A DNA stretch of 63,835 nt, filler included. It is 7 parts of 7 records of this genome, joined end to end, with 100 filler letters (N's around TTAATTAATTAA, not from the genome) between each part and the next. Parts side by side here need not be neighbours in the genome. Positions count along the whole stretch, not along the records: positions 32,108 to 41,150 come from SRR20825019_797; 6 more parts are not named here. The stretch is one strand, 5' to 3'. This document shows, piece by piece, positions 19,750-52,000 of the stretch (position 1 is the first letter of the stretch; every line of letters begins with the position of its first letter). The notes under the pieces are model-generated. The model made no database searches. It saw only the letters and a list, made by a program, of their open reading frames with translations, and had not been told where the DNA came from. The translations under genes and the position numbers were made by a program.

Positions 19750-20172
19750 TCATGCCTGCCATTCGGGGAGCGGGAAGAGCCGGTCATAGGCCCAGTTAAA
19801 GATCAGCGCATAGCCCATGTAGAACAGCGCGAATGCCAGGTCCATGACCAGCGCCTGCCAGAGCGAAATGCCCAGATAAAGTGCAATGAGCGGCATCAGC
19901 ATGATCAAAAGGCCGATTTCGAACAGCACCGCATGGGCAATGCGGACCGGGCCGGACTTGAGCGTCGTGCCGGCAAGCCGGTTCAGCGCCTTGTCGAAGA
20001 AAAGATTGTAGACATAGTTCCACACCATGGCGACGGTGGCGCTGCCAACGATGATGACGGCACTGTCACCGGCATGCAGGTGGAAGGCGAAGGCTGCCAG
20101 CGGCGTCGCAATCAGGATACCGATGATTTCGAAGGAAATGGCGTGACGAATACGGTCAGCGGTGGTCCGCAT
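19750..20172 (-). CDS. PACE-family efflux transporter
   Basis: MRTTADRIRHAISFE, WNYVYNLFFD, RIAHAVLFEIG, FNWAYD duplicated halves. Confidence 0.92.
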   Translation of the reverse strand: MRTTADRIRHAISFEIIGILIATPLAAFAFHLHAGDSAVIIVGSATVAMVWNYVYNLFFDKALNRLAGTTLKSGPVRIAHAVLFEIGLLIMLMPLIALYLGISLWQALVMDLAFALFYMGYALIFNWAYDRLFPLPEWQA

Positions 20173-20300
20173 GGAAAGCTCCATGAGTTCCGGGCCGTCC
20201 CGAACGCTGATCCCGGAATGGGGGAGGTCGTCCTCGCTTGCCGGCTGGATATAGGCTCTGGCGCAAAACCGGGCAAGACCGGCACGGCATATCCGATAGT

Positions 20301-20939
20301 CTAGGGACGCAGGGCAAACACCCCGGCGCGCACTGGCGCGGTGCCGCCCATATCGTCGACCAGATAGGTGGTCAATAGCTCGAGCCGGTCGAGCGGCAGG
20401 TTGCGGCGAAACGGATCGCCGACCAGCACGCGGGCGCCACGCCTTGCGGCCGCCTCCAGCAGCGGCAGCGTATCGGCCACAATAGCGGGATCGTAGAACA
20501 CGTCGCCGGCCAGAACGATCTCGGCGTCGGGCAGGTGCGGCTGATCCCAGACGGCGATCTCGGCCTGGTTGGCCGCCGCATTGAGTTGCAGCGCCACCGG
20601 GGCCACCGGGTCGGCGTCCATGGCCCAGATTTTTGTTGCCCCCGCCTTGGCGGCGGCGATACCGATGAGACCCGATCCGGCGCCGAAATCGAGCACGGAT
20701 TGGCCTGCAACCAATTCGGGATGATCGCGCAGATAAAGCGTCAGCGCCGCGCCGCCGCCCCAGGCATAGGCCCAATAGGGCGGAATGTCGTCCAGCCCTT
20801 CGCTGGCCAGCCAGCCGATCAGCCCGCTTTGCGGGGTTGGCGTGTAAATGGCAATATCGGGCCGGAACGGCAGGGCGCGCAGCGTCAGGCGCTGCGTGAT
20901 GAAATTCCCGGCGCGCTGGGTCAGTCCGGCAATTGGCAC
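20301..20939 (-). CDS. Class I SAM methyltransferase (protein lysine MTase, Methyltransf_16-like)
   Basis: PPYWAYAWGGG, VLDFGAGSGL, AGDVFYD, GDP.R; start approximate. Confidence 0.85.
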   Translation of the reverse strand: MPIAGLTQRAGNFITQRLTLRALPFRPDIAIYTPTPQSGLIGWLASEGLDDIPPYWAYAWGGGAALTLYLRDHPELVAGQSVLDFGAGSGLIGIAAAKAGATKIWAMDADPVAPVALQLNAAANQAEIAVWDQPHLPDAEIVLAGDVFYDPAIVADTLPLLEAAARRGARVLVGDPFRRNLPLDRLELLTTYLVDDMGGTAPVRAGVFALRP

Positions 20940-21388
20940 GCATCCACCCATCTGCCGCCGCACAGTTCGGCGAGCCGGTCCACACTGAGCTTGACCGAGG
21001 AATGTGTGTCGCCTGCGGCCGGGATCACCAGATCATAAATCCTGAGCGAAATATCGAGAAAGATCTTCAGCGGCGCCGGCAGGCCGAAGGGGCACACCCC
21101 GCCGACCTGATGGCTGGTCAGGCGCAGCACATCCTCGGCGCCCAGCATGCGGGGCCGTCCACCAAAAGCGGCCTTGGATTTCTGGTTATCGAGCCGCGCA
21201 TCGCCGCGCGTCACCAGCAGGACTTCATCGCCATTGACGCGGATGCACAAGGTCTTGGCGATCTGGCCCGGTTCGACACCATGCACTTGCGCGGCCAGTT
21301 GCACCGTGGCCGTGGAATCGCTGGTAACGATGACCGAAAGATCGGGCGCGCGGGCGGCAAGATCGGTGCGGACGGTATCAAGGCTCAT
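20921..21388 (-). CDS. YbaK/EbsC aminoacyl-tRNA editing family
   Basis: TATVQLAA, QIAKTL, GGVCPFG, PAAG. Confidence 0.9.
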   Translation of the reverse strand: MSLDTVRTDLAARAPDLSVIVTSDSTATVQLAAQVHGVEPGQIAKTLCIRVNGDEVLLVTRGDARLDNQKSKAAFGGRPRMLGAEDVLRLTSHQVGGVCPFGLPAPLKIFLDISLRIYDLVIPAAGDTHSSVKLSVDRLAELCGGRWVDACQLPD

Positions 21389-32107: not shown

Positions 32108-35100
32108 CCACGTCCAGGTGCTCATCATCAGATCATCGATCTGCATGTTCAGACGGTACCGTCGAATCCCAGTCCAGATACCCTTCGACGCCCAGTGTAC
32201 CGCACCAGAAAACAATACATTCGCTGCCTCATTGACGCTAGCAAAGTCAAAGAAAAACACCATCATTTCGCCACGGTCACTGGGCGTGTATAGGACACCG
32301 TATACTCCCCCCAACTCGTCGGTTCCGAGGGCCTGAGTCGTAGCAGGGGCGACGACTGCAGCACTGGTGTACCATGAGTTTGTTTGTGCCAACGTACCGC
32401 CAGGAAGGATGTGGGGAAACAAGGACTGTCCAAGCGGTGTCAAGCTGAACGTTCGCGCGTCGCCAGTACCGGCCGCATTCACTGTTGTTCCCGAATCGGC
32501 TAGCGGATACGCGGACACCACTATGCGACGAGTCTTGAACTTCATTTCATAGTCGATCATCGCCAACTCAATGCGCCCACCTGGGCTCAGGCCAGACGGG
32601 AAGCAGGTACAACCAGCATCATAGTACGCCACAGACATATTGCTTAGGACCGCGAAGAGGTAGCGACCGGAACCGTCCGAGTTGACAAAGTGGAGCACGA
32701 GGCCCTTGGCCGTCAAAGCCTTCAGATTCACAAGGTGAACAGAGTGGAAGCCCATCCGGTTCAGGTGGGTGGCAAAATAGAACAGCGCTGGCTCGTTCGT
32801 ATTCATCTTCATGTCGCCCGCGACAAGCACCAGCACCGTCATATCTATCTTCTGTGTCTCGACGGTTGGTCGTGCACCCTCGGCCCGCCGCCTGACCAGA
32901 ATCGGCGCGCTTACATGGTGCGGAGCCACAACAGTTCGGTTGTGAGCCATTCCATTGCCACCGTACATGCGAGGCGAATCGAAGCCCGTGCAAGGAGTCA
33001 TAAGGAGGTTGTCGTTGTAGATGCTGTGAGAGGCACCGCTCAACACATCAGGCGCCACCTCTCCACTGGCAAACCACACTGTACCGGAGTATCCTTCCAT
33101 CCTCAATCGTATTGTCATTCCCACAACTTGGTAATACTTCACAAAGTTGAACGCCTGCCAATCAGTCGATCCTTCCGCATGCGAGTTCACCTCGGCCGCG
33201 GTCACACAGACGCGTCCCAGTTCCCATCCGTGTGTGCCCAATGAGTAAGAGTGGTCGAGTCCCCACGCAGTGAACATGAGGCCCTGTGCCACGTGCTTGT
33301 AGTGTACATCCACCGAGAGCGAATAAGCGGGGGGGTCCGTGTAGCCTGGGATGGCCGCGACACTGTCGGAGCGGCTATACATGTTAACGCAAATGTCATT
33401 GAAGCCGCCCCACTCCAATGCTTGCAGCGGGGTGGTGAATTTGAGATCGAGCTTGGCCCCGCCCCATCTGGAGGGGTCGTTCGAAGAGATCACCTTGATA
33501 GCATTCAAACCCACCCCCGCCCCGAGGGGGCCACCATCCACTTCAAGTGTATATCCATCCTCTCCCTCTGCGTCCCAGTGTGCAGCCCGGTTGCTGGCGG
33601 ACGGGTCTTGCACGAAGCGGCCATTAGGGCAGAAGTCAGTTGTATAGTTACTTCTGCCAAGCAATACCTCCATGTACCCCGGGCTGGGCCCGCATGTGCC
33701 GCCCTCCCGCGGCTGGCTCCCCCCATGGTGAACAACACACCCTGCGGCCCTCATCGACGGAAGGGCACGCACAGCCTCGGTGCGGGCCTCTGCGGGGGCA
33801 ACAGACCATCCATACGGCAGGGCGCCGGCCCGGACATCGGAGATGAGTCCATATTCGTAATCGCCAACCACGACGAGATTGTTGGGAGTCAGCTCCAAGG
33901 GCCGTGAAGGAGCAGTGTCCGGGGCCGCGGTGCGAGCCAGAAGGATGCGAGCGGGGCATGACGACACCCCGTAATAGTTTTCCTGAGGGTACATCCCCCC
34001 GCCCATCCCAAGTGTGTCGTTGTTCAAGACGGTGCGCATCGTAGTGCCGCACGGGGCGCCCATGTAATCAATGCCACTTCCATCATGGAGAACGAGGCAG
34101 CGCGTTCCAAACAGTGGCGTCGTTCCTGCCACCATGGCGATGGTGACGTTATCCCTCGGGGCAAACTGCCATCCGGCAGGCAGCCTGAGATAGCCGTGTT
34201 GACATCCCATCGATGCAGCCATGGGCGGAGTGTTATCCATGGTTGCATATTCCCGGCCGCCAAACACGTAAGTGTTGGTCACCTCCGCGGAGCGGTCCGC
34301 CGGCTGCCAGCCACTTTCACGCTTGCGAATAAGGATGCGGCTGGAACAGTGAGCAGGTCGGAACGGGTTGTTGAGGAGGTGACTCGCAGCAGTGTGGGGG
34401 CACGCGAAGGACGTGCTTGCGTACGCGTGCCGTGGGGGGCCGTGGGGGCGGTGGGTGAACTTGCTGGGGCCTATTACACGCCCCGCCGCCCAGCGGGATC
34501 CGCCCTTGACGGTATAGTCCACCTCGCCTTCCGTCACTTGACCACCAAGCTTGACTCCAAACGACAGTGAGGTCCCAGGAGAGCAGGACACCCCTTCCCA
34601 GAGATAGCCGCCTTGCATATGGGTTGTGGTATCAACATCATCCTCGGCAAGGGCGCGGCCAGTCCCGATTCCAATAGGGAACCAAAGGAGAGACCACAGC
34701 GACGCCTCACCACCAATTGCAACAGCATGCAATGCCTCAGGACCTGCGGGGCGTGATGCGGGGTTCATGCCGGTGCAGTTGAGGACGTAATTGAATGTCG
34801 TTCCGGCCCCGTCGTATGACTTGCCGGTGTAGACAAGACGCCATTCCACATCATCCAATGGATGCTCCGTGAATCCGGACGGAGTGACAGTGGCTCCACC
34901 TCCCGTGCCACCCCCGCCCCCACTGCGATCAGTAGCGACAGCACTTCCGTCCGCCAAAACTAAGCAGTCTGCTCCAAAGCGGTATCCGGACACTAGAGCA
35001 CGCACGTCTGCAGAGTCGCTAGCAATCTCGAAGCCGGGGGGCACAACGCCCACTCCCACCTCGTGATGCGTGCAGTCATCCTTCCAGTTACTGTGCGCAT

Positions 35101-38100
35101 CGACAAGGTGGTCGTCCAGGGTGGCATACACGTATTCTCCGAAACCGACCAGGTTCACAGGCGCACCAACCCCAATAGCTGTCACGTACGACCCAGTCAT
35201 TGGTGTAAAACCGCCACCAGCTTGGTCCTCCCAATACAACGAAACCCCGGTGCCACGCTCCGACCACGTGAAGAACCGCAACTCGACACGGTACTCCTGT
35301 CCGGGCTGGAACGTGTGCCAGTCAGACGTGGTGCTCATGGCTGCGGCGTATGTGTATGGGCTTCCGTCACTGCTAGTCGAAGGTGCAACCTGCGCGCCAT
35401 TGATGAACAGGGCGGCGGCCGAGAGCGAATTCTCCACGCGGAAGCGGAATGTCTTTGGGACGGGGACCTCCAGGATCGAGTTCCACCTGTGCAAACCGTT
35501 AGTATTCTGGCAGCAATGTCACGGGTGCCCTCGCCTACCGTGCACCAAAGTATGTTGACGGCACGCTAGCGTCCATCACGAAGGTGGAGTAGAAGGTCGT
35601 GTCGTCGGAGTTCCAATTACTGACATCAATAATGATTTCAGAGGTCTCATGAACTTCTTCCGCAAAACGCGTCGCCTCGGCGCGGCCATCGCTGCGGAAA
35701 GACCGATAGTACTTGGCCTGCCAGTTACCATAATCCCTGTAATTCAACAGGTTGACAGTGTCACCAATGGCACCATTTACCGTGACACGAATGCCGAGGC
35801 CGGTGCCAGTGCTCGGAGGGGAAGAGCACTCCACAAGGGTGGGCGACACCCATCCCACCTCCGAGCACGCCTCTGACGAGAGCAAGCCAGCGCTCGGTCC
35901 AAAATGGAATCCCATCAGGGTGATAACTGATGGCCTGTGCTGGGAGGGGTCCGGGACAACAGCGGTGATCGTAGGCTTTGTGTACGAAAAGATGACTGCC
36001 GTGCGCCCCACCATTCCATCCACGGTGACCTTGACCGATGAAGGCAGTCCTACCGCTACTGACATCAGGGTAATGGTGCAGTCCACACGGCTGTCATCCA
36101 CCCAGGCCGCAGTGTCGCACGGATTCCCGGCAATAGACGCTGAAACAGCGGCAGGCGGAGTGGCACCAAAGTATTGCCCCGATATTGTGATGGTAGAAGA
36201 CACCATGAGGTTAGGTACGGTGGCATGCTGCACCACCGGTTCGATTCGATTCATCGTAAACATATCAGTCATTCCATACGAAGGCCCCGCTAGGTCACCC
36301 GCAGTGTGGCCCACTGATCGCACTGCAGTGGAGTTGGACAGCAAGATCACCCCTTCAGCCACATCGTCCATTACTGTTCCATCCTGCACAATGTATTCAG
36401 GAGTCGTCTCCCCAACATATACCTTTGCCAGAAAAAGATCATCGAGGCCCATTCCAGCACCCCCCAGGGCCCCCTTGGTCTTGCCAGACACATAGACCAC
36501 GCCGGCCGAGGTGACATACCCTCCCATTGGCTCATCGTGCGCCGAAGTACCAAATTGAAGCCCGTTCAACCTCGCACCAGTGGCTGGGTCGAATTCCAAC
36601 ACCACCACGTCCTTTCCGCCATTCCACGACCCTGCCATTGCCCCCTCGGTATAGCCTATGACAACAATCCCGCCGGACGACACTCCGGAGGCACATGGAG
36701 CGTCTACGCGAGAGGCGTACCCATCTGTGATTCCCCAAAGGCGGGCGCCCGTGGCCGCATCGTATTTTACCAAGACCCAGTCCTGTTCCGCTCCCGTTGA
36801 GTAACCACTAGCGTACACTTCACCGCCACCCGTGGGCACGGCCACGGTTGTTCCGGAGGCTGCTGCTTCCTGCATCGTCCACGTCACGGCCCCCGTCCCA
36901 GCATGGATGCGCTGGGTTACCATACCCCCAGGTACCGCTCCCGCCATAATCCCACCGGTCGCCCCGACGACAAAGGCAGCAGAAGACAAACGGTGATATG
37001 CCACTCCAAAATATCCATCGTCCGCCGCTGTCCCTTCTTGAACCATCCACATGCGGACACCTGTGGTGCCGTTGATCCCGTATGCCACGCCGTCCCACAT
37101 GCCCGCGGACGTCCCTCCCAATGCTCCCAAGCTCCGCCCCGCCACGCATATCATGTCGCTGCTGGGGTCGCCGGAGTCTGTCGACACATCGCGCAGCTCA
37201 TCGCTCCACATACTGCCAAACTCCGCATGCCACACGTTGGAGCCGTCGTCATTCATGACAGCGATCATAAATTGATTCCCCATCAACGACATCCCCAGTC
37301 CCATGGTGGAGTTGAGTCCACATTCGGGGCCGGCGAACGCGGGTGGGCACATGCACATGCACTCATCAGCATCCAGAATGCCGCCGTTTTGGCAGCTGGG
37401 AATGGAGCAAACATCACAACTGTATCCCGCCCACATTCCCTTGCAAACGCAATTACACCCTACGGGGTCCAGATGCCCGTGCGGCTCGCACTCGGAAGCC
37501 ACGCGGATACAAGTTTTGCAGTCAAGCCCTCCCCAGGGATGTTCGCATGAGCAACTGCACGAGGCCAGATCGAACACTCCGCCCTTATCGCAAACCCGAT
37601 TACACGTGTCACAGAGCGCCCCCTTCCAACCGAGGTCACAGTCGCATGAGCACCGGTTATTTGGAGTGCCGTGAGCTCCACATGACGGGAGGGGGTCGCA
37701 CTGAGGTACGTAGATGTAATTCATCCCAAGATAGTCCAACTGCGTCACAGCATTGAACGGCGAGAGGGTGCTGACATAGCGAATGTGGATACTGTTGTGT
37801 TCATCTGTATACTCAAGGATACTGGAGACGGGATAATTCACGAGCCAGTCATGCCATGTCCATGCCAGAGCAGTCACGTAATCATCCACAAACCCCAGAG
37901 ACTCCCATTGGGTTGACGCGTGGTTGTAAATGTCAAACCCGTACGACTGGGCAAAGATATCATCTCCTCGGACCTTGGCATGGAAGACCAAGCTGGACTG
38001 CCGTGACAACAATACCTCCGAGGTTACATTGAATACAAACGTACCCGTATATGGCGAACCAAGCTCCAGGTAACTGGCATAAACATCCTGGGTCCCGGTG

Positions 38101-39212
38101 AGATCGCTGGTTTGTACTTTGTCCACTGCCTGAAAGCCATCGATTGGCCCGTATATCACCGGGGTCTGCTCTGCCGGAGTGGTGCAGTTACACCGCACAG
38201 AATCCAAGACGCCGCCATTGGGGCACGATGCCAGGCTGCATGTGGCGCAGCCAGTCCCTTGCCACGGGGCCTCGCACTGGCATGAACACGTCACCGGGTC
38301 CACTATCTCCCGATTGCCAGGGCAGGTTGTCAAGCTGCACATCTCACACCGAGGACCACCCCAGTTGCCCGAGCACGCGCAGGAGCACAAGCCTGGGTCT
38401 GCCACGCCGTCGTGTACGCACGATATCACGCACTCATCACAGATGTCCCCAATCCACCCAGGCATGCACTCGCATCCACACGACAAGAAGCTGAAGTTGC
38501 CGTGGAGCCCGCACTCAAACTCCACCGGACACCGCGCCCTCCATGCCATCGACACCAGTAGACTGTCTATCTGCGTCACCGGGTTGAACGCAGAGAGAGT
38601 CGTCCGATATCGAATGATAATCTCCCCACTCGACGGTTCAATTATTCCCTCCAGCCCCGCCTCTCTTTCCATCTTCACATCCCAGTCATGCCACTCCCAT
38701 GCAGTGGTATACCCACTTAGATCGCCGAGCGCATGGAACACCCCAGCGGAGTGGTTGTATACATCCAGTCCATAAGACTGCGCAAATATGTCATCACCAC
38801 GGGTCCGTGCGTGGACACCAATCTCTGTCACGGTAGTGTGGTTGATACTGTCCCGCGGCGCAACGAATACAAAGCTCCCCGTGTACGGCGACGACAGCTC
38901 AATGTAGTCCGCATACACGTCCTGTGTGCCTGTGAGGTCGCTAGTCTTGACCTTGTCCACCAGTTGCGAGTTGTCGACCGGGCTGTAGCTCACGGGCGCC
39001 ACAGGAGCTTGGGTGTAGTGCCGCAGGAAGTCCTCTCGGGCACTCGACCGTCCCACTGCCACGGTGGTCCGCCGGGCACCTTCAGCCACAGCCAGCGCCA
39101 TATCATATCCGGTCGAACCCGACTGTTTCTTCCACGGCGTATTGTCGCCACATATCGTATTTGTGGTCAACGCCACCAGTACCACCAACCAGGCCGCATG
39201 TATGCGTGGCAT
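32108..39212 (-). CDS. Giant secreted mosaic protein (exons 39212-35539 and 35486-<32108; >=2351 aa, 3'-truncated) ending in an Agd3-like region
   Basis: Signal peptide; propeller repeats (QFGTSAHDE..VYVSGKTKG), EGF arrays, IPT/TIG (ITISGQYFG, ITLMGFHFG), PA14 restored by splicing, C-terminal WASKGIWTGIRRYRLNMQIDD. Confidence 0.85.
35487..35538 (-). other. 52-nt spliceosomal intron
   Basis: GTAGGC...TACTAAC...GCACAG; removal restores the frame (FGAR|WNSILEVP). Confidence 0.9.
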
Positions 39213-39544
39213 GTCGCAACGGGCGCTGCGCTTTCTATATGTTCTACTGAGGTCGCTCCACGCGTTATATCAAACTGAACGTGTCGAGGTGGCTCGATTC
39301 GCAACTAGTTTGCAAGCAAGGGGGGCTAAAGGGATCGTCTCCATCCCCTGTTCAGCACACAGGCACTCGGCACTCTGCCTTGACTCGGAGGAGGAGCGTG
39401 TGATACGGGAGGAATGGATCTGTTGTGATAATAAGGGGAAGCTGGTATCGACCTGTTGGAGTCGTGAACTCATCAGGCGCTCCCACCAACAACGATGGTT
39501 TGTCTTGGGCGGGCGCTTGAGTTCCGGGCCTGCTGTAGACGCTC

Positions 39545-39775
39545 GTCACGGCGAGCGGCCGCGCGTCTCGTCGGTTTCAGGCCGGGCCCGGCCCCGGCCG
39601 GCCGGGGCATCCGAGTCACCCGGCGCGGCCAGGCACCGCGCGGCGGCCGGGCGCTGGCGCGGCGGCCTCGGCCCGGCGCCCACCGCTGGCGGCCGGGGCC
39701 CCCGGCCCGCCGCCGCCCGGCCCCGGCACCGGGCTGGCCACGCGGGCCGGCGAACCCGCCCGGGCGTGTGCCGGT
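39545..39775. other. Extremely GC-rich intergenic island
   Basis: Dense GGCC/CCGG/CGCG runs with very few A/T, followed abruptly by a T-rich stretch. Confidence 0.7.
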
Positions 39776-39991
39776 CAACGCTCCGAAATGGGAGTCAATC
39801 AAACTTTGTTTTTTGTAGTCATGTTTTAAGGTCATTGTTTTTTCCGGGAGCCTGCCCAGCGGATGAGTGGCTCCGGTCGCAGTAGCCAGGCTGAAGCCGC
39901 TGTCGTTCGCTGGCGTGGGGGACAAAACGAGGGACTGCTATTTGCCAGAGTACTCCTTCCACAATCATATTTATCAAACAATCAACAAGAC

Positions 39992-40849
39992 TCATTCGTC
40001 TTGACGATAATAGCGCAACTTGTTCTTAGCCACATCATTGATACGTGCACTCAGTCCACCGTCCTTGGACAATGGGTCGTCCTTCCATCCGTCAGCATAC
40101 ACCAAATGGGCATGCTTCCGGTCCCTGTGGGCATAGAACTTAGACCTGTTCCAAAACGGCTTGCAGTGACGATCAACATTGTTGGGGTCGCAAAGCATGC
40201 AGAAGCTGTAGTGGTTGCAAGCAACATACTTCATAGAACCATCGATGCCAACAACGCGCTTGCACAGAGTATGCGACCAGTCTCCAGTAGTACGTGACTT
40301 CATGAAGTACAACTGACCACACCCTTGTGAGTTCTCGGCTCCAGGTTCGCACACCATCGCCTCTCCTCTCGGAATGAGATCGTTCACTGTATGGCTCGTG
40401 CGCATGGCAACGTTTCCGCGAATACCGCCTTGCTGGCGGGGCGGTGCAGATCGCTTCTTAGGGGGGCTATCGTCCTCCTCTTCAGTTTTCATTTTCTTCG
40501 GGACACAGACCTCAATCTGGACTGGGGGGAACACTGCCTTCCTTTTCCTCTTCGGAGGGGCAGGGGCAGCGAATGTAGGGGTTGGGGTTGAGCCAATGCT
40601 GGCAAGTAGCTCGTCACACAAAGGCACAGAATTCTCGTGAAGATCAGAGGATATCGCAGTGAACAGGTTCTTTGTCTGCACACATCCCTCCGCAATATCC
40701 GCGATGGCCGAGACCGACGGCGCCGGATTCACCGGCGCGGCATCGCGAAGAACGGACGATCCAAAGTCAATCTGAGGCAAGTCAATCTCAGCGAGGGTTG
40801 CCAAAAAGTCGTCCTCGTCAAAGGTAGAGTCTAATGATAGAGAATTCAT
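39992..40849 (-). CDS. Hypothetical nuclear protein with Cys/His-rich C-terminus
   Basis: Acidic N-terminus, PKRKRK NLS-like motif, CMLC..HRDRKH. Confidence 0.6.
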   Translation of the reverse strand: MNSLSLDSTFDEDDFLATLAEIDLPQIDFGSSVLRDAAPVNPAPSVSAIADIAEGCVQTKNLFTAISSDLHENSVPLCDELLASIGSTPTPTFAAPAPPKRKRKAVFPPVQIEVCVPKKMKTEEEDDSPPKKRSAPPRQQGGIRGNVAMRTSHTVNDLIPRGEAMVCEPGAENSQGCGQLYFMKSRTTGDWSHTLCKRVVGIDGSMKYVACNHYSFCMLCDPNNVDRHCKPFWNRSKFYAHRDRKHAHLVYADGWKDDPLSKDGGLSARINDVAKNKLRYYRQDE

Positions 40850-41250
40850 TTTGTCCTTGTGTGTTATTTCACCGCACTCCCGAAGTCCTGATGAAAATCC
40901 GACTGACGAATAGTAGTGTTGTACATTGTAAAGTTCTTCTTGACCTAGTGAAAATTTCCAGCTGTATTAAAAGGTAGAATCTTTAAGAATATATGAGGCT
41001 GCTCAGTAGATGTTATGGGCACAAAAAAAAAACAGTGCCTTAGTGTTGAAAAGAAAGCCTTCTTGTATGACAAATTTATGCCAAGACTTGGAGCATATTT
41101 ATATTAGGAGGGGGAAGGATGGGAAGTGGGGGGGGGGGGGGGGGGGGGGGNNNNNNNNNNNNNNNNNNNNNNNNNNNNNNNNNNNNNNNNNNNNTTAATT
41201 AATTAANNNNNNNNNNNNNNNNNNNNNNNNNNNNNNNNNNNNNNNNNNNN

Positions 41251-42317: not shown

Positions 42318-45197
42318 TTAGTTTGGGACGTCGAACACCTCCTCGACCATCTTGATACCCTCCTTCTCCATGACGGCCAGGACGGGGCGGTACAGATCAG
42401 GGTCGGTGGGATCGATGAGGCCACGCTTGCTGCTGAGACCACCATCAAGGATGAGCTGGGCGGTCACTCCGACGGGGAGGCCAACTGTGACGGCGGTGGC
42501 GGTGTTGTGGTTATCCTTGCCGCGGTAGGTCAGGGTAGACTGGAAGACGCGAGTCTTGTTCTTGGAGGGGAAGTGGGCGGTAACACGATGGGTCATGATG
42601 TTGAAGTCACGCTCGTGGGCACGGATGGACATCTTGTCGGTGAGCACGGAGCACAGGGAGTCGATGATGAATCCACCGTTGGTCTTGGGGACCTGACGAT
42701 CAGAGAAGAGACCAAGACGGTCGAAGGCGAAGCGCACCTCGGCCATCTCGTCCTCGAAGGTGGGAGGGCGACGCTCAAGGGGTCCACGAGCCAGGGGGAT
42801 GGCGGCGAGGGCCTTGTAGGCGGCTCCGGCACGAACCTCATCACGCTGCTTGCCGACGCGATCGCACACGATCTTCATGACGGCGGCCTCCAGGTCGGTG
42901 GCGTTGTCACCAATCAGGCGACGCATAACATCATTCCAGGTGAAGCTAGCGTTAGAGCCAGTCTTGAGCTCATCCCAGCACTGGTTGTCGTTGAGGAGAC
43001 CAAGGGCGCTGTAGGCGAGGGCCACGGGGGCGTAGCCAGAGTAGCGGATGGTACCACGGACGAGATCCTCGACATCCTTGAGGCCGTAGCTCTCGACGTA
43101 ACGCTCAGAGTTACCGTTGGGGATCCAGTTGAGGTCCATACCCTTGTAGCCGGAGAGGGGCTGCATGAGGTAGTAGAGATCCTTACCCTCGACGGAATGC
43201 CACTCACCTCCGGCAAGGAAGCGGGTGGGGCGGGTGATGGCGGTGAGGACACCACGGGGGGACCAGGAGAACTTGTATCCCATGACACCGTCGGAGTTCT
43301 CAGGCTGGCAGAGAGCTCCGCAGAGGCTGACGTAGCGCTTAATAACACCACCCTGGCTACGGATGGACTGGAGGAGGTCGGCGGAGGTCATGATATCGAT
43401 TCCGGGGTCAAGACCAATCTCGTTGACAACAATGGACTCCTTGGCCTTCTCGCGGAGGGCCTCCATGCCGGGGCTCACGTAGGAGGCGGTCACGAGGGGA
43501 ACCTTGTGCTTGATGGTGCTCTCGGCGATCAGGGGGTGCATGTGGGCGGGGAGGAGGGAGATGACGCAATCGGCGGACTTGATGAGCTTCTCCACGTAGG
43601 TGTCCATAGTGGTGAGGTTGGCCTTCGCGGTGCGGAGGGGGCTGCTGTCGCTAAGGCTGGGAGCACCGAACTGCTTGATGACGGCCTCGAGGGAGGTGGA
43701 GTTGCCATCGACAACAGTTACGGAATTCTTAGGGTTCTTGAGAAGATGACGGACGCAGGGTCCGCTGGTCATACCGGCACCGAAGATGACGATACGGTCA
43801 CGGCTGTGCTCCTCCTTGGACTCGTGCTTGGCGCGGAGCTTCTCGATGTACTTGTAGTGGGGGGTGAGGGTACCGCTGTTGGTAACCTGGGAATTGTAGA
43901 GGTAGGGGCCCAGGGACTCCTTCTGGCTCTCGAGGTCGGCGGTACCGTCGCTGAGGGCAACACGCTCGATGAGGGGGACAAGTCCGACACCGAAGTCGGT
44001 GGAGGCCTCCTTGGGGAACTCGGCGGGGATGTGGTCAACACCCATGATGATGACTCCCTCGCCGTTGAAGTCGTTGATCTCCTGAACATCGTCGCTCTTG
44101 AGGTTGTAGACGTAGAAGGGGTTCTGGATAGTGGTGGCCTTGACGAAGAACTCGACGGATCCTCCAGGGTCGCAGGTGATGTCTCCGAGGCACAGCAGGG
44201 GCAAGCGGTCCTGCTCCTTGAGCTCGCGGGCCTGGCTGGTGGTCAAGAGACGGGGGAAGCGGGGCTCCCAGTACATGCCGTTGATAAGGACGTGGACGTA
44301 GGGGGCAACGCGATCCTGGAAGGTGGACTCGTAGTCCTGGGGGTTCTTGTAGTAGTCGGTGGTGGAGAAGCGCTTGGAGCTGTCCTTGTGCTGAACCATA
44401 TCCTTGCTACGGACGACAACGACGTTGATAATGTGGTTGTCCTGGGTGGCCTTGTCACGGGCCCAGATCTTGGGGAGGTCCTCGACCTCGACGTACCTGC
44501 AGGGGAGGAGATGGAGGATCTGCTGGGCGGCGTTGGACACGCTACCAGCACCGGTGATGGCAATGGTCAGGGGGCAGATGTCCTTGGGGAGGCCACGCTT
44601 CCTAATCTGCTCACCGATCTCGCGGAGGTCAGCACGGGCGACGTCCAGGCTAGAGTACTCCTTGGAGAGGGAGAGGTGCAGGAAGGGGGTGGCGAAGCCA
44701 CGGGTGAGGAGGGCAAGTCCTAGGGCGTGGAGGGTATCGATCATACCTCCGAAACCGGCGTAGGGGCCAAACTTGACCATACGGCCCTCCTCGTTGACGA
44801 TACGCTCGTAGTCCATCAGGCGGATGTTCTTCTCCATTATGGTGTCAAGCAGGGGCATGTTGTAGGGCTGGGCCTTGATGGTGTGGGAGAAGAAGAGGTA
44901 GGTACGATCGGGGATGAGCAGCTGGGGAGGGACCTCCTTTACGGCGCAGATGGTGCTGGCACCGGAGATGTCCTCGTTGATCTCGGCTCCGGCCTCCTCG
45001 TAGGCACGGTCGTCGTAGCAACGGATGGTGGAGGGCTGCACGATAATCTTCTTTACCTTACCGCGGTTAAGCAGCTCGGCGACCTGGGAGGGCACAAGGG
45101 GGACACGACGCTCCCAAACGTTCTTATCCTCGCGACGGATACCAATCACACCGTTGGCAGCAAGCCCGGTGTAGGTACAGGTAGTACGACGCAGCAT
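42318..45197 (-). CDS. AASS: Bifunctional lysine-ketoglutarate reductase/saccharopine dehydrogenase
   Basis: IRREDKNVWERRVPL, FFSHTIKAQ, DYERI, DITCDPGGS, VTASY, NEIGLDPGID, YKFSWSPRG, TVGLP; MLRR presequence. Confidence 0.95.
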   Translation of the reverse strand: MLRRTTCTYTGLAANGVIGIRREDKNVWERRVPLVPSQVAELLNRGKVKKIIVQPSTIRCYDDRAYEEAGAEINEDISGASTICAVKEVPPQLLIPDRTYLFFSHTIKAQPYNMPLLDTIMEKNIRLMDYERIVNEEGRMVKFGPYAGFGGMIDTLHALGLALLTRGFATPFLHLSLSKEYSSLDVARADLREIGEQIRKRGLPKDICPLTIAITGAGSVSNAAQQILHLLPCRYVEVEDLPKIWARDKATQDNHIINVVVVRSKDMVQHKDSSKRFSTTDYYKNPQDYESTFQDRVAPYVHVLINGMYWEPRFPRLLTTSQARELKEQDRLPLLCLGDITCDPGGSVEFFVKATTIQNPFYVYNLKSDDVQEINDFNGEGVIIMGVDHIPAEFPKEASTDFGVGLVPLIERVALSDGTADLESQKESLGPYLYNSQVTNSGTLTPHYKYIEKLRAKHESKEEHSRDRIVIFGAGMTSGPCVRHLLKNPKNSVTVVDGNSTSLEAVIKQFGAPSLSDSSPLRTAKANLTTMDTYVEKLIKSADCVISLLPAHMHPLIAESTIKHKVPLVTASYVSPGMEALREKAKESIVVNEIGLDPGIDIMTSADLLQSIRSQGGVIKRYVSLCGALCQPENSDGVMGYKFSWSPRGVLTAITRPTRFLAGGEWHSVEGKDLYYLMQPLSGYKGMDLNWIPNGNSERYVESYGLKDVEDLVRGTIRYSGYAPVALAYSALGLLNDNQCWDELKTGSNASFTWNDVMRRLIGDNATDLEAAVMKIVCDRVGKQRDEVRAGAAYKALAAIPLARGPLERRPPTFEDEMAEVRFAFDRLGLFSDRQVPKTNGGFIIDSLCSVLTDKMSIRAHERDFNIMTHRVTAHFPSKNKTRVFQSTLTYRGKDNHNTATAVTVGLPVGVTAQLILDGGLSSKRGLIDPTDPDLYRPVLAVMEKEGIKMVEEVFDVPN

Positions 45198-49053: not shown

Positions 49054-52000
49054 ATGAACCCCTCCTCACATTCGCCATCCACACCAGATGATGGGGGAAA
49101 TCAGCAACCCAAATCCTCCTACCGAAACTACTTCCAATCGTCTCCAAGCAACACCCCCAACAACAACAACAATAGTGGTGGTGGTAATGATGTAACATCA
49201 TTCCTGTCAGGGCGGAGTGGAGGTGGTGGGGGAGGAGGACGTGGTGCCTCCGAGTCTCCTCCTCCAAGGGACCGTGATTTCTACCGTATGTACTCTGCTC
49301 CTGCTGCAGTAAGTGCCGCCGCTGACCAACAGCAGCCCCCTCTCAGTGCGGGGGGGTCATTCCAGCCGTTAGATCATGCCCGTGGTGTCTCCACCGAGGA
49401 GGCCCTACTATACGGCCGAGCAGCGAAGGCCAATGCAACCCAAAACTACAACCACAGTGAGGCCGATACCAGCCCACCTCACTCATCTGTCCCCCCTGAG
49501 GAGGACGACTTTACCTCCGCCCTCATACGCCACGCAGCTAGATCTCTTGGAGTAGACTACGTACCAAGCACCGGTGTCTTACCCACTAGAAACCTCAATG
49601 TGACTTTAGCCGAGGAGGAGGATGATATTGCTTTGGGGCAGTACCGAGGTAATCGATCCGGCAACAACAACAGTACCATCCACACCGGATATCGTACCCG
49701 TACCGTTGGGTTACATGGAGGACTAGATGGACGTGGTGGGGGTGGTGAGCTACCCAACACTTCCCCCCAACGCCGCCTTCGTAGGATGGCAGGTGCCCAC
49801 CGACTACTAAAGCAGGAAACCAGCGTGGGGTTCACTAATCAGGAGTTGGACGATGAGGAGCCCTTCGAGGACGATCCATGGAACGGTGAGCACAGTAATA
49901 TAATGATGCCGGATGCAAAGTACCATCGACGCCTTGGTGGTGGGGGTGGTAACCTCTCCATGGATCTCCTCTACGCTACATCCCCAAAGCGTTCCCGCCA
50001 AATGTTCACCGCCCCAACCGAGCCCCCGTCTGAGCTCCTAAAGCAAATCAAGCTTCGTGAGAAGGCCCTAGGGGACGACCATCTCTCTGTAGCGGCTTTA
50101 CGCTTGCAGCTCGCCGAGCACTACGTCGTGGCTGAGCAGTCTGGGAATGCCGAGGAGGAGTTCCTTAAGGTGCTAGATATATTTAAGAAGAGGTACGGTG
50201 GGGAGCGGGCGCGGGAGGTGCTGCCCCTATTGGCCAAGATAGCCACCTTCTATGCCTCCATCGAACAGTACTCGAAATCTGAGCTATATTTTGGGAAGGC
50301 CAAGGTAGCTGCAGAGGCTGAGGAGGAGATTAAGCAGAGCAAGTATCTCTATGCACTCCTAGATGAGGAGAGGAAAATATTCGAATCCCTCGGCGGGACC
50401 GATCCAGCTAAGCTAGCCCCCCAGTATGTACAAGAGCTCTCCGAGGCAGGTATTTCCCAGGAGGAGAGGGATAGCAGGAAAGAGGCCCAGTTTAATCGAA
50501 GGGAGCAGGCTAGGAGGACTATGATGGTAATCAGGGGGGAGCTATCTAGTGATGCCGCCAATCTTGGGGATACCGTCGCCATGAGCAACATTCTGAGGGA
50601 ACACCGCCACGTAAATCTTACTCCTAAGCAGGCCGCTTCGATTAAGCTAAAGGGACTCCTGCAGTCCCTCCGCGAAGGGCAATCGGCCGATACACACATC
50701 CGGGTCGACGATGACAATATTTTCCGACACAGAGGAGATGATAGTCCTACAGTGCGACGAAGTGTTGGTCGTGCTGCCTCAGGAAGCGATGTTGGTAGCG
50801 ATGAGGAGGTCGACTACGAGCCCCCCCTCCGCGAGGACCAATTCTCTAGCGTCGTTGAGTTCTACGATGCCCTCCAGGCTCAAGAAAAGCGTCGCAGCGC
50901 AAACGCAGCACTCCGAGCGGAGAGGAAGAGGGGTGGTAGTCAACATCATCGTGGTGGTGGTGGTAAGTCCGAGATCAACCCTGCTACATCACTCCCCCGC
51001 CCCGGTACCAAGATAGCCAAGGATGATAGACGAGCAGTAGCGCATGCCCTCGCCGCCTCCGTCCTCAACGGCACCATGGAGTCCACTAGGGGGGATGATG
51101 TCTTTGCGGTGGCAATGCTACGAGAGCAAGAGTCCCTAAAGCGAAAGATCGAGCTGCAAAACCAATACAATGCCCAAATTGAAGAGGGATCCTATGAAAA
51201 CAAGCACCGGCGCCAACTTCAGGAGCTCATGAGCAAGAGTGGGCTCTTTGGCGGTGGTGCATCATCATCTCCCACTAATGGGGATGTGTATGGTGGCCAG
51301 GCCCTTACCAAGCTTCCCATAGGTGCCTCCAGGCAGATCGTTATGAAGTGCGGTGGGGTGCTTGGATCGCTGGGCTGGAATGTATCCGTGGACGCACCAT
51401 GGGCCTCCTCCCAGACGGGCGGCAAGAAGCTAACCCCAGCCGAGGTGGTTGCTAGTGTCAGGGCTACAGCTGCGGCCAATGCTGGAGGCACCAAACCAAA
51501 GGAGAACGACATGGCCAAGAAGAGCAGGTTGATGAATGACGATGAGCGTGCTATGCTGAAGCTGGACTTCACTACCGACGCCGCTGCTGCTGCCGCGGGA
51601 AGGAGGCAGCACCACGACAATACCCGCCAAAAGCAGCAACAGTCCTCTCGTCGCGGAGTAGATTCTGACGATGATGATACCAGGCCTCCGAGCGAAGTGG
51701 ATGAGTCTGAGATCATCCAGAACAGGGAATGGTTTGAATCAAATTTATCATCATCCCACGCAGATGGTGCAAATAACAAAGACCACCATGCTGCTACCAC
51801 TAGCTCTTCTGCTGGTTCAGGTCCCAGCCTAAACCTTGCTGCTGATACCTTGAAGTTGGTGCAAGAGGCGCTGTTCCGTGCAGGGGAGTTGAGGAGGGAC
51901 AGACAGGCTACAGAGCTATTGATGCGTGGTGGTGATGCTTCAAACCATAACAACTCCCACTCATTGGCTACGACCTCCCCACTTCTAAATTTCTCTAATG

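What the first reader, a model, noticed from the sequence alone, without database searches (positions are those of the whole stretch)
32108..32842. Agd3-like (CBM87 + CE18) polysaccharide deacetylase module in a giant eukaryotic surface protein
Seen: the C-terminal ~245 aa read MTVLVLVAG..GRYLFAVLSNMSVAYY..SGLS..IDYEMKFKTRRIVVSAYP..GVYGVLY..GEMMVFFFDF..VHWASKGIWTGIRRYRLNMQIDDLMMST. Known: Aspergillus Agd3 deacetylates galactosaminogalactan, with an N-terminal CBM87 followed by a CE18 domain whose catalytic Asp-Asp lies in a Q-[VI]-D-D motif. By eye the motif order matches. Inference: a probably non-fungal eukaryote carries this enzyme at the end of a >2300-aa adhesin-like scaffold. That would point to an undescribed system for making, remodelling or attacking GalNAc-type exopolysaccharide. 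The metal-binding His residues would lie beyond the contig end, so activity is unproven.
Basis: partly seen in the sequence, partly recalled or inferred. Interest (0 to 1): 0.8.

Follow-up and report, generated by a model that had tools for sequence, protein, structure and literature searches.

The report
Agd3-like deacetylase module, giant eukaryotic protein
A very large secreted protein of an unidentified eukaryote ends, where its contig breaks off, in a true but distant relative of the fungal biofilm enzyme Agd3, which removes acetyl groups from a sticky sugar polymer.

Summary
The window is seven contigs joined by N spacers. The finding lies at the low end of contig 32108-41150, on the minus strand.

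The gene starts at ATG 39212, has one 52-nt GT-AG intron (35487-35538), and stays open to the contig end: 2351 codons with no stop.

Evidence that the last 262 residues are an Agd3-type module:
- Pfam CBM87_Agd3: 28.3 bits against a cut-off of 27.6.
- Agd3 itself in the PDB: E 4.5e-8.
- 197 hits among 1.84 billion representatives, best 31% identity. Of 46 scanned, 44 carry the Agd3 deacetylase domain.
- The AlphaFold model (pLDDT 85) has Agd3 (6NWZ) as top Foldseek match, E 1.3e-14.
- QIDD aligns with the catalytic Asp-Asp of Agd3.

Only about 22 residues of the CE18 barrel are present. The His ligands lie off the contig, so activity is unproven.

New here: two GH114-associated domains, EGF-like repeats, an SBBP propeller and two TIG domains lie upstream. 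None of the 46 scanned relatives has a GH114-associated domain. Whether the host is non-fungal, and whether the protein stays on the cell surface, cannot be told.

The parts
39147..39212 (-). Start codon and signal-peptide-like hydrophobic N-terminus (residues 1-22)
   Evidence: This is the first ATG of the ORF. It is one of two 19-residue Kyte-Doolittle windows above 1.6 in the 2351 aa; the other is at residue 742, at the threshold of 1.62. The signal-peptide call is by eye; no predictor was run.
38589..38948 (-). GH114-associated domain, copy 1 (PF14741)
   Evidence: Pfam E 8.7e-14, 52.2 bits against a cut-off of 22.
38184..38531 (-). EGF-like cysteine-rich repeats, cluster 1 (22 Cys, residues 228-343)
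   Evidence: The region is 36-48% identical to cluster 2 in internal-repeat blastp. There are weak EGF matches in the PDB.
37731..38114 (-). GH114-associated domain, copy 2
   Evidence: Pfam E 4.6e-13, 49.9 bits. It is 52-54% identical to copy 1.
37320..37700 (-). EGF-like cysteine-rich repeats, cluster 2 (24 Cys, residues 505-631)
   Evidence: Pfam EGF_TEN E 1.2e-8, below that model's own cut-off.
36270..37265 (-). SBBP-type beta-propeller (residues about 650-981)
   Evidence: phmmer against the PDB finds CylK at E 6.8e-13 in 4 stretches. NCBIfam SBBP repeat propeller scores E 3.4e-6, far below its cut-off. Internal blade repeats are seen.
35760..36197 (-). Two IPT/TIG domains (36006-36197 and 35760-35924)
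   Evidence: Pfam TIG scores 27.4 and 23.4 bits against a cut-off of 20.9. The two are 33% identical to each other.
35487..35538 (-). 52-nt spliceosomal-type intron: GTAGGC ... TACTAAC ... CAG
   Evidence: Read. Removing it joins the 1225-aa and 1126-aa frames as ...YFGAR|WNSILEV.... It is the only candidate with this branch motif in the gene. No RNA evidence could be obtained.
32849..35486 (-). About 880 residues with no family match. They include an internal repeat (exon-2 residues 113-186 and 406-475) and a Pro/His/Arg-rich linker at about 34341-34479.
   Evidence: No Pfam, NCBIfam, PDB or Atlas match. GC3 stays coding-like throughout.
32174..32848 (-). CBM87-type alpha/beta/alpha domain (P0003 residues 16-240)
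   Evidence: Pfam CBM87_Agd3 28.3 bits; Agd3 alignment; AF2 pLDDT 85; Foldseek top hit 6nwz_A with TM 0.71. Trp174 aligns with Agd3 W292.
32108..32173 (-). First about 22 residues of the CE18 deacetylase barrel, with catalytic motif CM1 (QIDD; Asp-Asp codons at 32132-32137). The contig end cuts it off.
   Evidence: It aligns with Agd3 ...RRVNLNTQIDDMF. D253 and D254 are invariant in 31 of 31 aligned sequences. Ten relatives align up to the contig end and nowhere else in the window.

Best explanation
Contig 32108-41150 carries one intron-containing eukaryotic gene on the minus strand. At least 2351 codons of it are present.

Domain order, from the N-terminus:
- a signal-peptide-like start;
- a tandem duplication of [GH114-associated domain + EGF-like cysteine repeats];
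- an SBBP beta-propeller;
- two TIG domains;
- about 880 residues with no family match;
- an Agd3-type CBM87 domain that runs straight into a CE18 deacetylase barrel.

Only the first strand of the barrel and its first catalytic motif (QIDD: catalytic-base Asp and metal-binding Asp) lie on the contig.

Inferred mechanism, by homology with Agd3. The CBM87 cleft holds a long hexosamine polysaccharide chain and feeds it into the adjoining active site. There a divalent metal, held by Asp254 and two unseen His residues, removes N-acetyl groups. The polymer becomes cationic and adhesive. The large N-terminal scaffold would place this activity in the extracellular matrix or on a target surface.

Shown here: homology, fold, CM1, the intron, and the upstream domains.

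Inferred only: that the remaining roughly 360-390 residues exist and are intact, that the enzyme is active, that the substrate is alpha-1,4-GalNAc-rich, and where the protein sits.
For: Sequence:
- phmmer against the PDB finds only Agd3 (6nwz_A), E 4.5e-8, over query residues 62-259.
- Pfam CBM87_Agd3: E 1.8e-6, 28.3 bits against a cut-off of 27.6.
- HMMER against 1.84 billion representatives: 197 hits at E<=1e-3 and 12 at E<=1e-10, best E 1.4e-17 at 31% identity.
- Of 46 hits scanned, 44 have Pfam Agd3_CE and 39 have CBM87.

Catalytic motif and ligand residue:
- D253, D254, W234 and G242 are invariant in the 31-row alignment.
- QIDD sits on Agd3 D377/D378 (with numbering from PMC7229062 passages).
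- The ligand-binding Trp W292 of Agd3 is kept as W174.

Fold: AF2 model pLDDT 85, pTM 0.84. Foldseek rank 1 is 6nwz_A, E 1.3e-14, TMq 0.71. The next match is at E 8.6e-7.

One gene, not a chimera:
- the frame is unbroken;
- GC3 is 0.65-0.66 in the module, the rest of exon 2 and exon 1;
- RSCU correlation of the module with the rest of the gene is 0.53-0.66.

Eukaryotic: a 52-nt GT..TACTAAC..AG intron restores the frame.

Second link to polygalactosamine biology: two GH114-associated domains at 52.2 and 49.9 bits. GH114 genes co-occur with agd3 homologues, according to passages of PMC7229062.
Against: - Only about 22 residues of the CE18 domain are present. Motifs CM2-CM4 and the C-terminal beta domain cannot be seen, so the enzyme could be truncated, degenerate or absent.
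- Two of the three Agd3 CBM residues whose mutation weakened GAG binding are not kept. D242 aligns with Ser. W344 aligns with a gap and with Val. Ligand specificity may therefore differ.
- The Pfam CBM87 score is marginal: 28.3 bits for the 262-aa piece and 23.9 bits, under the cut-off, for the 1129-aa product. Agd3 was not listed when the 1129-aa product was the PDB query.
- No GAG- or Pel-type partner genes (glycosyltransferase, GH114, GH135, epimerase) were found among the window's ORFs. The contig is only 9 kb and the genome is not held.
- The intron has no RNA support.
- The signal peptide is judged by eye and hydrophobicity only.
Confidence: 0.72

Rival explanations
1. The family and fold are the same, but the substrate is different. 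The module would de-N-acetylate another N-acetylated polysaccharide, for example a chitin-like, PNAG-like or heparosan-like polymer, or a prey or host glycan. It would not act on an alpha-1,4-GalNAc (GAG/Pel-type) polymer.
For: - Agd3 D242 and W344, two of the three residues shown to matter for GAG binding, are Ser and Val/gap here.
- The module sits on a long branch (1.43 changes per column), with no more than 31% identity to any relative.
- Human NDST1 also appears among the fold matches, at TMq 0.58.
- Pfam HSNSD-CE hits one close relative.
Against: - Every characterised relative named in the passages read (Agd3, and more distantly PelA and PelADA) acts on alpha-1,4-GalNAc chains.
- The same protein carries two GH114-associated domains.
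- W292 is kept.
Confidence: 0.2
2. The module is a binding-only or degenerate remnant. The CBM87 would serve as one more lectin-like module of a large adhesin, and the CE18 barrel downstream would be missing, truncated or catalytically dead.
For: - Nothing after CM1 can be seen.
- The rest of the protein is built of binding and scaffold modules only.
- One scanned relative (P0142) shows CBM87 without a CE hit at the threshold used.
Against: - The Asp-Asp pair and the flanking RRxxLNxQ[IV]DD...W pattern are kept exactly as in active-type relatives. That is not expected after loss of catalysis.
- 44 of 46 scanned relatives carry the CE domain.
Confidence: 0.06
3. The finding is an artefact. Either a bacterial Agd3-like fragment was joined to a eukaryotic gene by chimeric assembly, or the whole contig is bacterial and the 'intron' is a frameshift error.
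For: - The window mixes bacterial-looking and eukaryotic-looking contigs.
- The nearest named relatives of one top hit are bacterial MAGs.
- Codon usage of the gene correlates about as well with some bacterial ORFs in the window (r up to 0.63) as within itself.
Against: - The open frame, GC3 and codon usage show no break anywhere between the scaffold and the module.
- The frame change is bridged exactly by a canonical GT..TACTAAC..AG element of 52 nt.
- No relative is closer than 31% identity, so there is no obvious bacterial donor.
Confidence: 0.02

Closest known systems
Aspergillus fumigatus Agd3 (PDB 6NWZ), founding member of CE18 and CBM87
   Same: - Same order: an alpha/beta/alpha CBM87 domain followed directly by the CE barrel.
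- The CM1 Asp-Asp (D377/D378) and the CBM Trp W292 are conserved.
- It is the best sequence and fold match in the PDB.
   Different: - Identity is only about 23%.
- D242 and W344 equivalents are not kept.
- Agd3 is an 806-residue three-domain protein, by the residue ranges given in PMC7229062 passages. Here the module follows about 2090 residues of other domains.
- The remaining motifs and the C-terminal domain are unseen.
- No GAG gene cluster is visible.
Bacterial Agd3 homologues (Bamford et al. 2020, PMC7229062), and the unnamed 650-710-aa proteins that are the best database hits
   Same: They give the highest scores (up to 80.6 bits, 31% identity) and share the CBM87 + Agd3_CE architecture. 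Relatives of hit P0007 lie in Bdellovibrionota-type and Pseudomonadota MAGs.
   Different: - The window protein branches alone on a long branch. It sits at the base of a 37-row clade that holds both the fungal-type rows and these bacterial rows.
- It has an intron.
- It has a giant N-terminal scaffold. Extra domains in the 46 relatives scanned are mostly C-terminal Ig-like, InlB-repeat, SLH or PASTA modules, and none is a GH114-associated domain.
PelA (CE21) and Bacillus cereus PelADA, deacetylases of the Pel alpha-1,4-GalNAc polymer
   Same: These are metal-dependent de-N-acetylases of a GalNAc polymer. PelADA has a three-domain layout reminiscent of Agd3 (passages of PMC13254593).
   Different: They are classed in other CE families according to that paper. 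Neither appeared among the sequence matches here.
Proteins carrying Pfam PF14741 (N-terminal GH114-associated domain)
   Same: There are two clear copies of this domain.
   Different: No GH114 catalytic domain was detected in the 2351 residues. Here the domain is paired with a CE18-type deacetylase instead. That the domain normally precedes GH114 rests on the Pfam name alone. No paper mentioning it was found.

Membership tests
CBM87 (Agd3 N-terminal carbohydrate-binding module) | Sequence match to the family profile above the curated cut-off | tested here: met
   28.3 bits against a cut-off of 27.6 for the 262-aa piece. The margin is small: the 1129-aa product scores 23.9 bits. Backed by 197 HMMER hits to CBM87-bearing proteins.
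CBM87 (Agd3 N-terminal carbohydrate-binding module) | Mixed alpha/beta/alpha fold with a central sheet, as in Agd3 residues 141-364 | tested here: met
   AF2 pLDDT 85. Foldseek rank 1 is 6nwz_A, E 1.3e-14, TMq 0.71. GATase-like folds follow, as the Agd3 paper describes for this domain.
CBM87 (Agd3 N-terminal carbohydrate-binding module) | Cleft residues that bind GAG in Agd3 (D242, W292, W344) | tested here: inconclusive
   W292 is kept as W174. D242 aligns with Ser. W344 aligns with a gap or Val. In the printed alignment block this column also holds non-aromatic residues in several relatives. No count was made.
CE18 (Agd3-type deacetylase) | CM1: catalytic-base Asp followed by metal-binding Asp | tested here: met
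   QIDD aligns with Agd3 QIDD (D377/D378). D253 and D254 are invariant in 31 of 31 rows.
CE18 (Agd3-type deacetylase) | CM2 HxxxH metal ligands (H510/H514 in Agd3) | not testable with these tools
   These lie about 130 residues past the contig end. No other part of the window matches ten relatives. No genome is held. No overlapping metagenome contig was found.
CE18 (Agd3-type deacetylase) | CM3 Arg, CM4 Met/His acid motif, and the C-terminal beta domain | not testable with these tools
   Beyond the contig end.
CE18 (Agd3-type deacetylase) | Metal-dependent de-N-acetylation of alpha-1,4-GalNAc chains | not testable with these tools
   Needs an enzyme assay.
GAG/Pel-type exopolysaccharide system | Neighbouring or co-encoded synthase, GH114, GH135 or epimerase genes | tested here: not met
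   The only other gene on the contig (39995-40849) has no family match. No such families were found among the other ORFs of the window that were scanned. This is weak evidence: the contig is 9 kb and eukaryotic genes need not cluster.
PF14741 GH114-associated domain | Profile match above the curated cut-off | tested here: met
   52.2 and 49.9 bits against a cut-off of 22.

The most novel reading that the evidence does not exclude
An uncultured, non-fungal eukaryote may use a giant extracellular protein to bind and de-N-acetylate a GAG/Pel-like alpha-1,4-GalNAc polymer. The protein couples two GH114-associated modules, lectin- or adhesin-type scaffolding and a deep-branching CE18 deacetylase. 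The polymer could be the organism's own matrix, or the biofilm or cell-wall polymer of fungal or bacterial prey or hosts. This would be the first cationic-exopolysaccharide remodelling system outside fungi and bacteria. The lineage of the module is as old as the fungal-bacterial split within this family.
Probability: 0.25. Interest if true: 0.65.

Novelty: new variant of a known kind. Interest (0 to 1): 0.45.

Why it matters
In the passages read, CE18/CBM87 enzymes are described from fungi and bacteria (PMC7229062). There they turn a neutral GalNAc polymer into a cationic glue needed for biofilm and virulence.

An intron-bearing gene whose copy has no relative above 31% identity among 1.84 billion representatives widens the family's host range. 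Its fusion to a 2000-residue scaffold with GH114-associated domains widens the known architecture.

If the rest of the gene is intact, it points to polygalactosamine-type matrix chemistry in an unsampled eukaryotic lineage, whether for making the polymer or attacking it. It would also give a functional hint for the uncharacterised GH114-associated domain.

As it stands this is a solid homology call on a truncated gene, not a demonstrated system.

Tried and rejected
- **Word-indexed homologue searches:** none scored at E<=1e-3. Queries were the module within a 1129-aa frame, the whole exon-2 product against longer proteins, and the GH114_assoc+EGF unit. The tool itself warns that this is weak evidence.
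- **Metagenome-contig scan with the module:** 97 pattern matches, none confirmed. No contig was found to extend the gene.
- **ESM Atlas** on residues 60-640 of exon 1 and 100-870 of exon 2: no usable hit.
- **AF2 single-sequence fold** of exon-2 residues about 630-870: pLDDT 35, unusable, so not searched.
- **PA14 domain across the intron:** suspected by eye from ...FGAR|WNSILEVPVPKTFRF.... Pfam found nothing in either half at E<=10. The spliced protein could not be handed to the tools, so this stays unconfirmed.
- **Second intron candidate** (34341-34479, 139 nt): rejected. Its length is not a multiple of three, yet the same frame continues on both sides. It is read as a Pro/His/Arg-rich linker.
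- **Sequencing runs:** no RNA holder is listed. Two coded runs of one sample hold about a tenth of the words. Their contigs cover only 32876-33032 (depth 4.2) and 39953-41068. None crosses the intron or the contig end.
- **Genome-contig scan with alignment A1:** It was replaced by a single-protein scan with hit P0007.
- **Literature:** no paper was found for PF14741 or GH114_assoc. Listings for Agd3+protist (4 listed of 5 papers) and Agd3+alga (10 listed of 13) show no title on an Agd3 homologue in such organisms. Searches were too unspecific to use.
- **Rfam and tRNA scans of the window:** nothing on this contig.
- **Taxonomic placement of the host:** not achievable with the tools at hand.
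Full report
**What the window is.** The 63,835-base window is seven contigs joined by N44-TTAATTAATTAA-N44 spacers.
- Contigs 1-4 carry compact bacterial-type genes: MscS, an SBP_bac_5 solute-binding protein, GcpE, DHDPS and others.
- Contigs 5-7 look eukaryotic: a 959-aa LKR/saccharopine dehydrogenase fusion, ankyrin repeats and very long ORFs.
- Codon usage differs between contig 5 and contigs 6-7, so they need not come from one organism.
- No whole genome is held.

The finding lies at the low end of contig 5 (32108-41150), on the minus strand.

**Observation.** The frame is open to base 32108, the first base after the spacer.

The gene model is as follows.
- Start: ATG at 39212.
- Exon 1 runs to 35539.
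- A 52-nt intron spans 35487-35538, with GTAGGC at the 5' end, TACTAAC 12 nt before the 3' CAG (read).
- Exon 2 runs from 35486 to the contig end.

Removing the intron joins the two long ORFs in frame as ...YFGAR|WNSILEV.... The total is 7053 coding bases, or 2351 codons, with no stop. This is the only GT..TACTAAC..AG candidate in the gene. A second candidate of 139 nt was rejected, because its removal would break a frame that in fact continues.

**Is the end of the protein Agd3-like?** Yes, by four independent routes.

1. *Sequence against solved structures.* Agd3 (6nwz_A) is the only real match, at E 4.5e-8. It covers query residues 62-259, and ...RRYRLNMQIDDLMMST lies on ...RRVNLNTQIDDMFLVT.
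2. *Pfam.* CBM87_Agd3 scores E 1.8e-6 and 28.3 bits, just over the 27.6 cut-off.
3. *HMMER over 1.84 billion representatives.* There are 197 hits at E<=1e-3 and 12 at E<=1e-10. The best is E 1.4e-17 at 31% identity.
   - I scanned 46 of the 150 listed hits with Pfam: the top ten, P0017, and all 35 listed hits of 800 residues or more.
   - 44 carry Agd3_CE and 39 carry CBM87. The two without Agd3_CE are a Big_12 repeat protein and a protein with CBM87 only.
4. *Fold.* An AlphaFold2 model built on a 31-row alignment has pLDDT 85 and pTM 0.84. Foldseek ranks 6nwz_A first, at E 1.3e-14 and TMq 0.71. That is seven orders of magnitude ahead of the next hit. GATase-like folds follow, as the Agd3 paper reports for this domain (passages of PMC7229062).

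Contrary points: with the 1129-aa exon-2 product as query, Pfam gives 23.9 bits, under the cut-off, and the PDB search does not list Agd3.

**Residue-level reading.** The PDB chain index plus 122 gives Agd3 numbering. I inferred this from the 141-806 construct and the 684-residue chain. It is consistent: D242, W292, W344 and D377/D378 all fall on D, W, W and DD in the printed alignment.
- The window's D253/D254 (codons 32132-32137) align with the catalytic base D377 and the metal ligand D378. They are invariant in all 31 aligned sequences, as are W234 and G242.
- The three CBM residues whose mutation weakened GAG binding in Agd3 are D242, W292 and W344. Of these, W292 is kept as W174. D242 is Ser. 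W344 is a gap or Val.
- By Agd3 domain limits (CE domain from residue 365), only about 22 residues of the CE18 barrel (32108-32173) are on the contig.
- tblastn of ten relatives finds no further piece anywhere in the window. A metagenome scan found no overlapping contig.

**Placement in the family.** I built a FastTree of 146 rows over the homologous region. The rows were the query, 142 hits that cover query residues 115 or earlier through 255 or later, and 3 ORFs from bacterial MAG loci. The remaining 8 hits and the short L003 ORF were left out.
- The query has a long end branch (1.43).
- It attaches at the base of a 37-row clade with SH-like support 98.
- That clade holds the fungal-type proteins (P0084, P0017 and P0146, which match the Pfam Agd3 models full-length). 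It also holds the group of top hits whose named relatives are Bdellovibrionota-type and Pseudomonadota MAGs.

The module is therefore not a typical ascomycete Agd3 orthologue, nor a recent copy of any sampled bacterial gene. This is a quick tree on about 270 columns and should not be pushed further.

**The rest of the protein.** From the N-terminus:
- a hydrophobic, signal-peptide-like start (judged by eye);
- a tandem duplication of about 278 residues at 40-55% identity. Each unit consists of a GH114-associated domain (52.2 and 49.9 bits against a cut-off of 22) and an EGF-like cluster of 22-24 cysteines;
- an SBBP-type beta-propeller (CylK, E 6.8e-13);
- two TIG domains;
- about 880 residues with no match in Pfam, NCBIfam, the PDB or the Atlas, containing one internal repeat.

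No transmembrane-like segment follows the N-terminus in the available part.

None of the 46 scanned relatives has a GH114-associated, GH114 or EGF domain. Their extra modules are mostly C-terminal Ig-like, InlB-repeat, SLH, PASTA, CBM96 or TIG domains. Only three (P0084, P0103, P0106) have long N-terminal extensions.

The GH114-associated domains are a second, independent pointer toward polygalactosamine biology. Passages of PMC7229062 state that a GH114 gene homologous to ega3 co-occurs consistently with bacterial agd3 homologues. The function of the associated domain itself is unknown, and I found no paper on it.

**One gene or a chimera?** The frame is continuous. GC3 is 0.65-0.66 in the module, the rest of exon 2 and exon 1. 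RSCU of the module correlates at 0.53-0.66 with the rest of the gene. This fits a single gene but is not decisive, since some bacterial ORFs in the window correlate similarly.

**How it most likely works.** This is inferred by homology. The protein is secreted. Its scaffold domains hold it in a matrix or on a surface. The CBM87 cleft aligns a long N-acetylhexosamine chain with the adjoining CE18 active site. There a divalent metal, held by Asp254 and two downstream His residues, supports de-N-acetylation, with Asp253 as the base. The resulting amino groups make the polymer cationic and adhesive.

A GalNAc-rich alpha-1,4 polymer is the most likely substrate, given the family precedent and the GH114-associated domains. 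The changed CBM residues leave a different substrate as a serious rival.

**Known or new.** Agd3 homologues are described from fungi and bacteria (abstract and passages of PMC7229062).
- Searches of the paper library for Agd3 with 'protist' or 'alga' listed no title on such a homologue.
- The paper's supplementary organism lists could not be opened.
- PelA is filed under CE21. PelADA is reported as falling into no existing CE family (passages of PMC13254593).

I file this as a new variant of a known kind. It is a deep-branching CBM87-CE18 module in an intron-bearing gene, fused behind a scaffold not seen in any scanned relative. Catalytic membership is tested only through CM1.

**Limits.**
- The host's identity, and whether it is non-fungal, could not be addressed.
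- Expression and splicing have no RNA support: no RNA holder is listed, and laid contigs cover only 32876-33032 and the upstream gene.
- The C-terminal roughly 360-390 residues are missing.

Noticed in passing
window 1-63835: The window is seven separate contigs joined by N44-TTAATTAATTAA-N44 spacers. GC content ranges from 0.52 to 0.63. Contigs 1-4 look bacterial and contigs 5-7 look eukaryotic. Codon usage of contig 5 differs from that of contigs 6-7, so more than one organism may be present.
   Followed up: partly
window 20190-20239 (-): There is a Guanidine-II (mini-ykkC) riboswitch, at 38.2 bits against a gathering score of 32. It lies on bacterial-looking contig 3, just upstream of the part of ORF 19750-20985 that matches the BTP 'chlorhexidine efflux transporter' family. 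This looks like a riboswitch-controlled transporter.
   Followed up: no
window 39995-40849 (-), with cover over 39953-41068: The only neighbouring gene on the contig encodes a 285-aa protein with a KRKRK-type basic patch and no family match. Contigs from two coded public runs cover it at several-hundred-fold word depth. Their loose ends look like library adaptor or template-switch oligo letters (identity recalled, not tested).
   Followed up: partly
window 34341-34479 (-): There is a Pro/His/Arg-rich stretch of about 65 residues inside exon 2. It is flanked by GT and AG and looks like an intron, but its 139-nt length would break the frame. It is read as a disordered linker.
   Followed up: yes
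window 35487-35822 (-): The residues on either side of the intron resemble a PA14-type domain by eye (...FGAR|WNSILEVPVPKTFRFRV...). Pfam finds nothing in either half alone. The spliced sequence could not be tested.
   Followed up: partly
window 42318-45197 (-): An uninterrupted 959-aa ORF encodes a fused lysine-ketoglutarate reductase / saccharopine dehydrogenase (AlaDh_PNT plus Sacchrp_dh domains). This fusion is typical of eukaryotes (recalled).
   Followed up: no
window 54881-63835 (+) and 49054-52959 (+): A 2985-aa ORF runs off the end of the window, and there is a second ORF of 1301 aa. Neither has more than weak, sub-threshold Pfam matches (a single WD40-like blade; TPR).
   Followed up: no
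model meec44f9c8adf (window 32108-32893): Human heparan-sulfate N-deacetylase/N-sulfotransferase 1 (9f6z_A) appears among the fold matches of the CBM87 module, at TMq 0.58. Pfam HSNSD-CE weakly hits the close relative P0007. This hints at a shared N-terminal-domain-plus-deacetylase layout.
   Followed up: no
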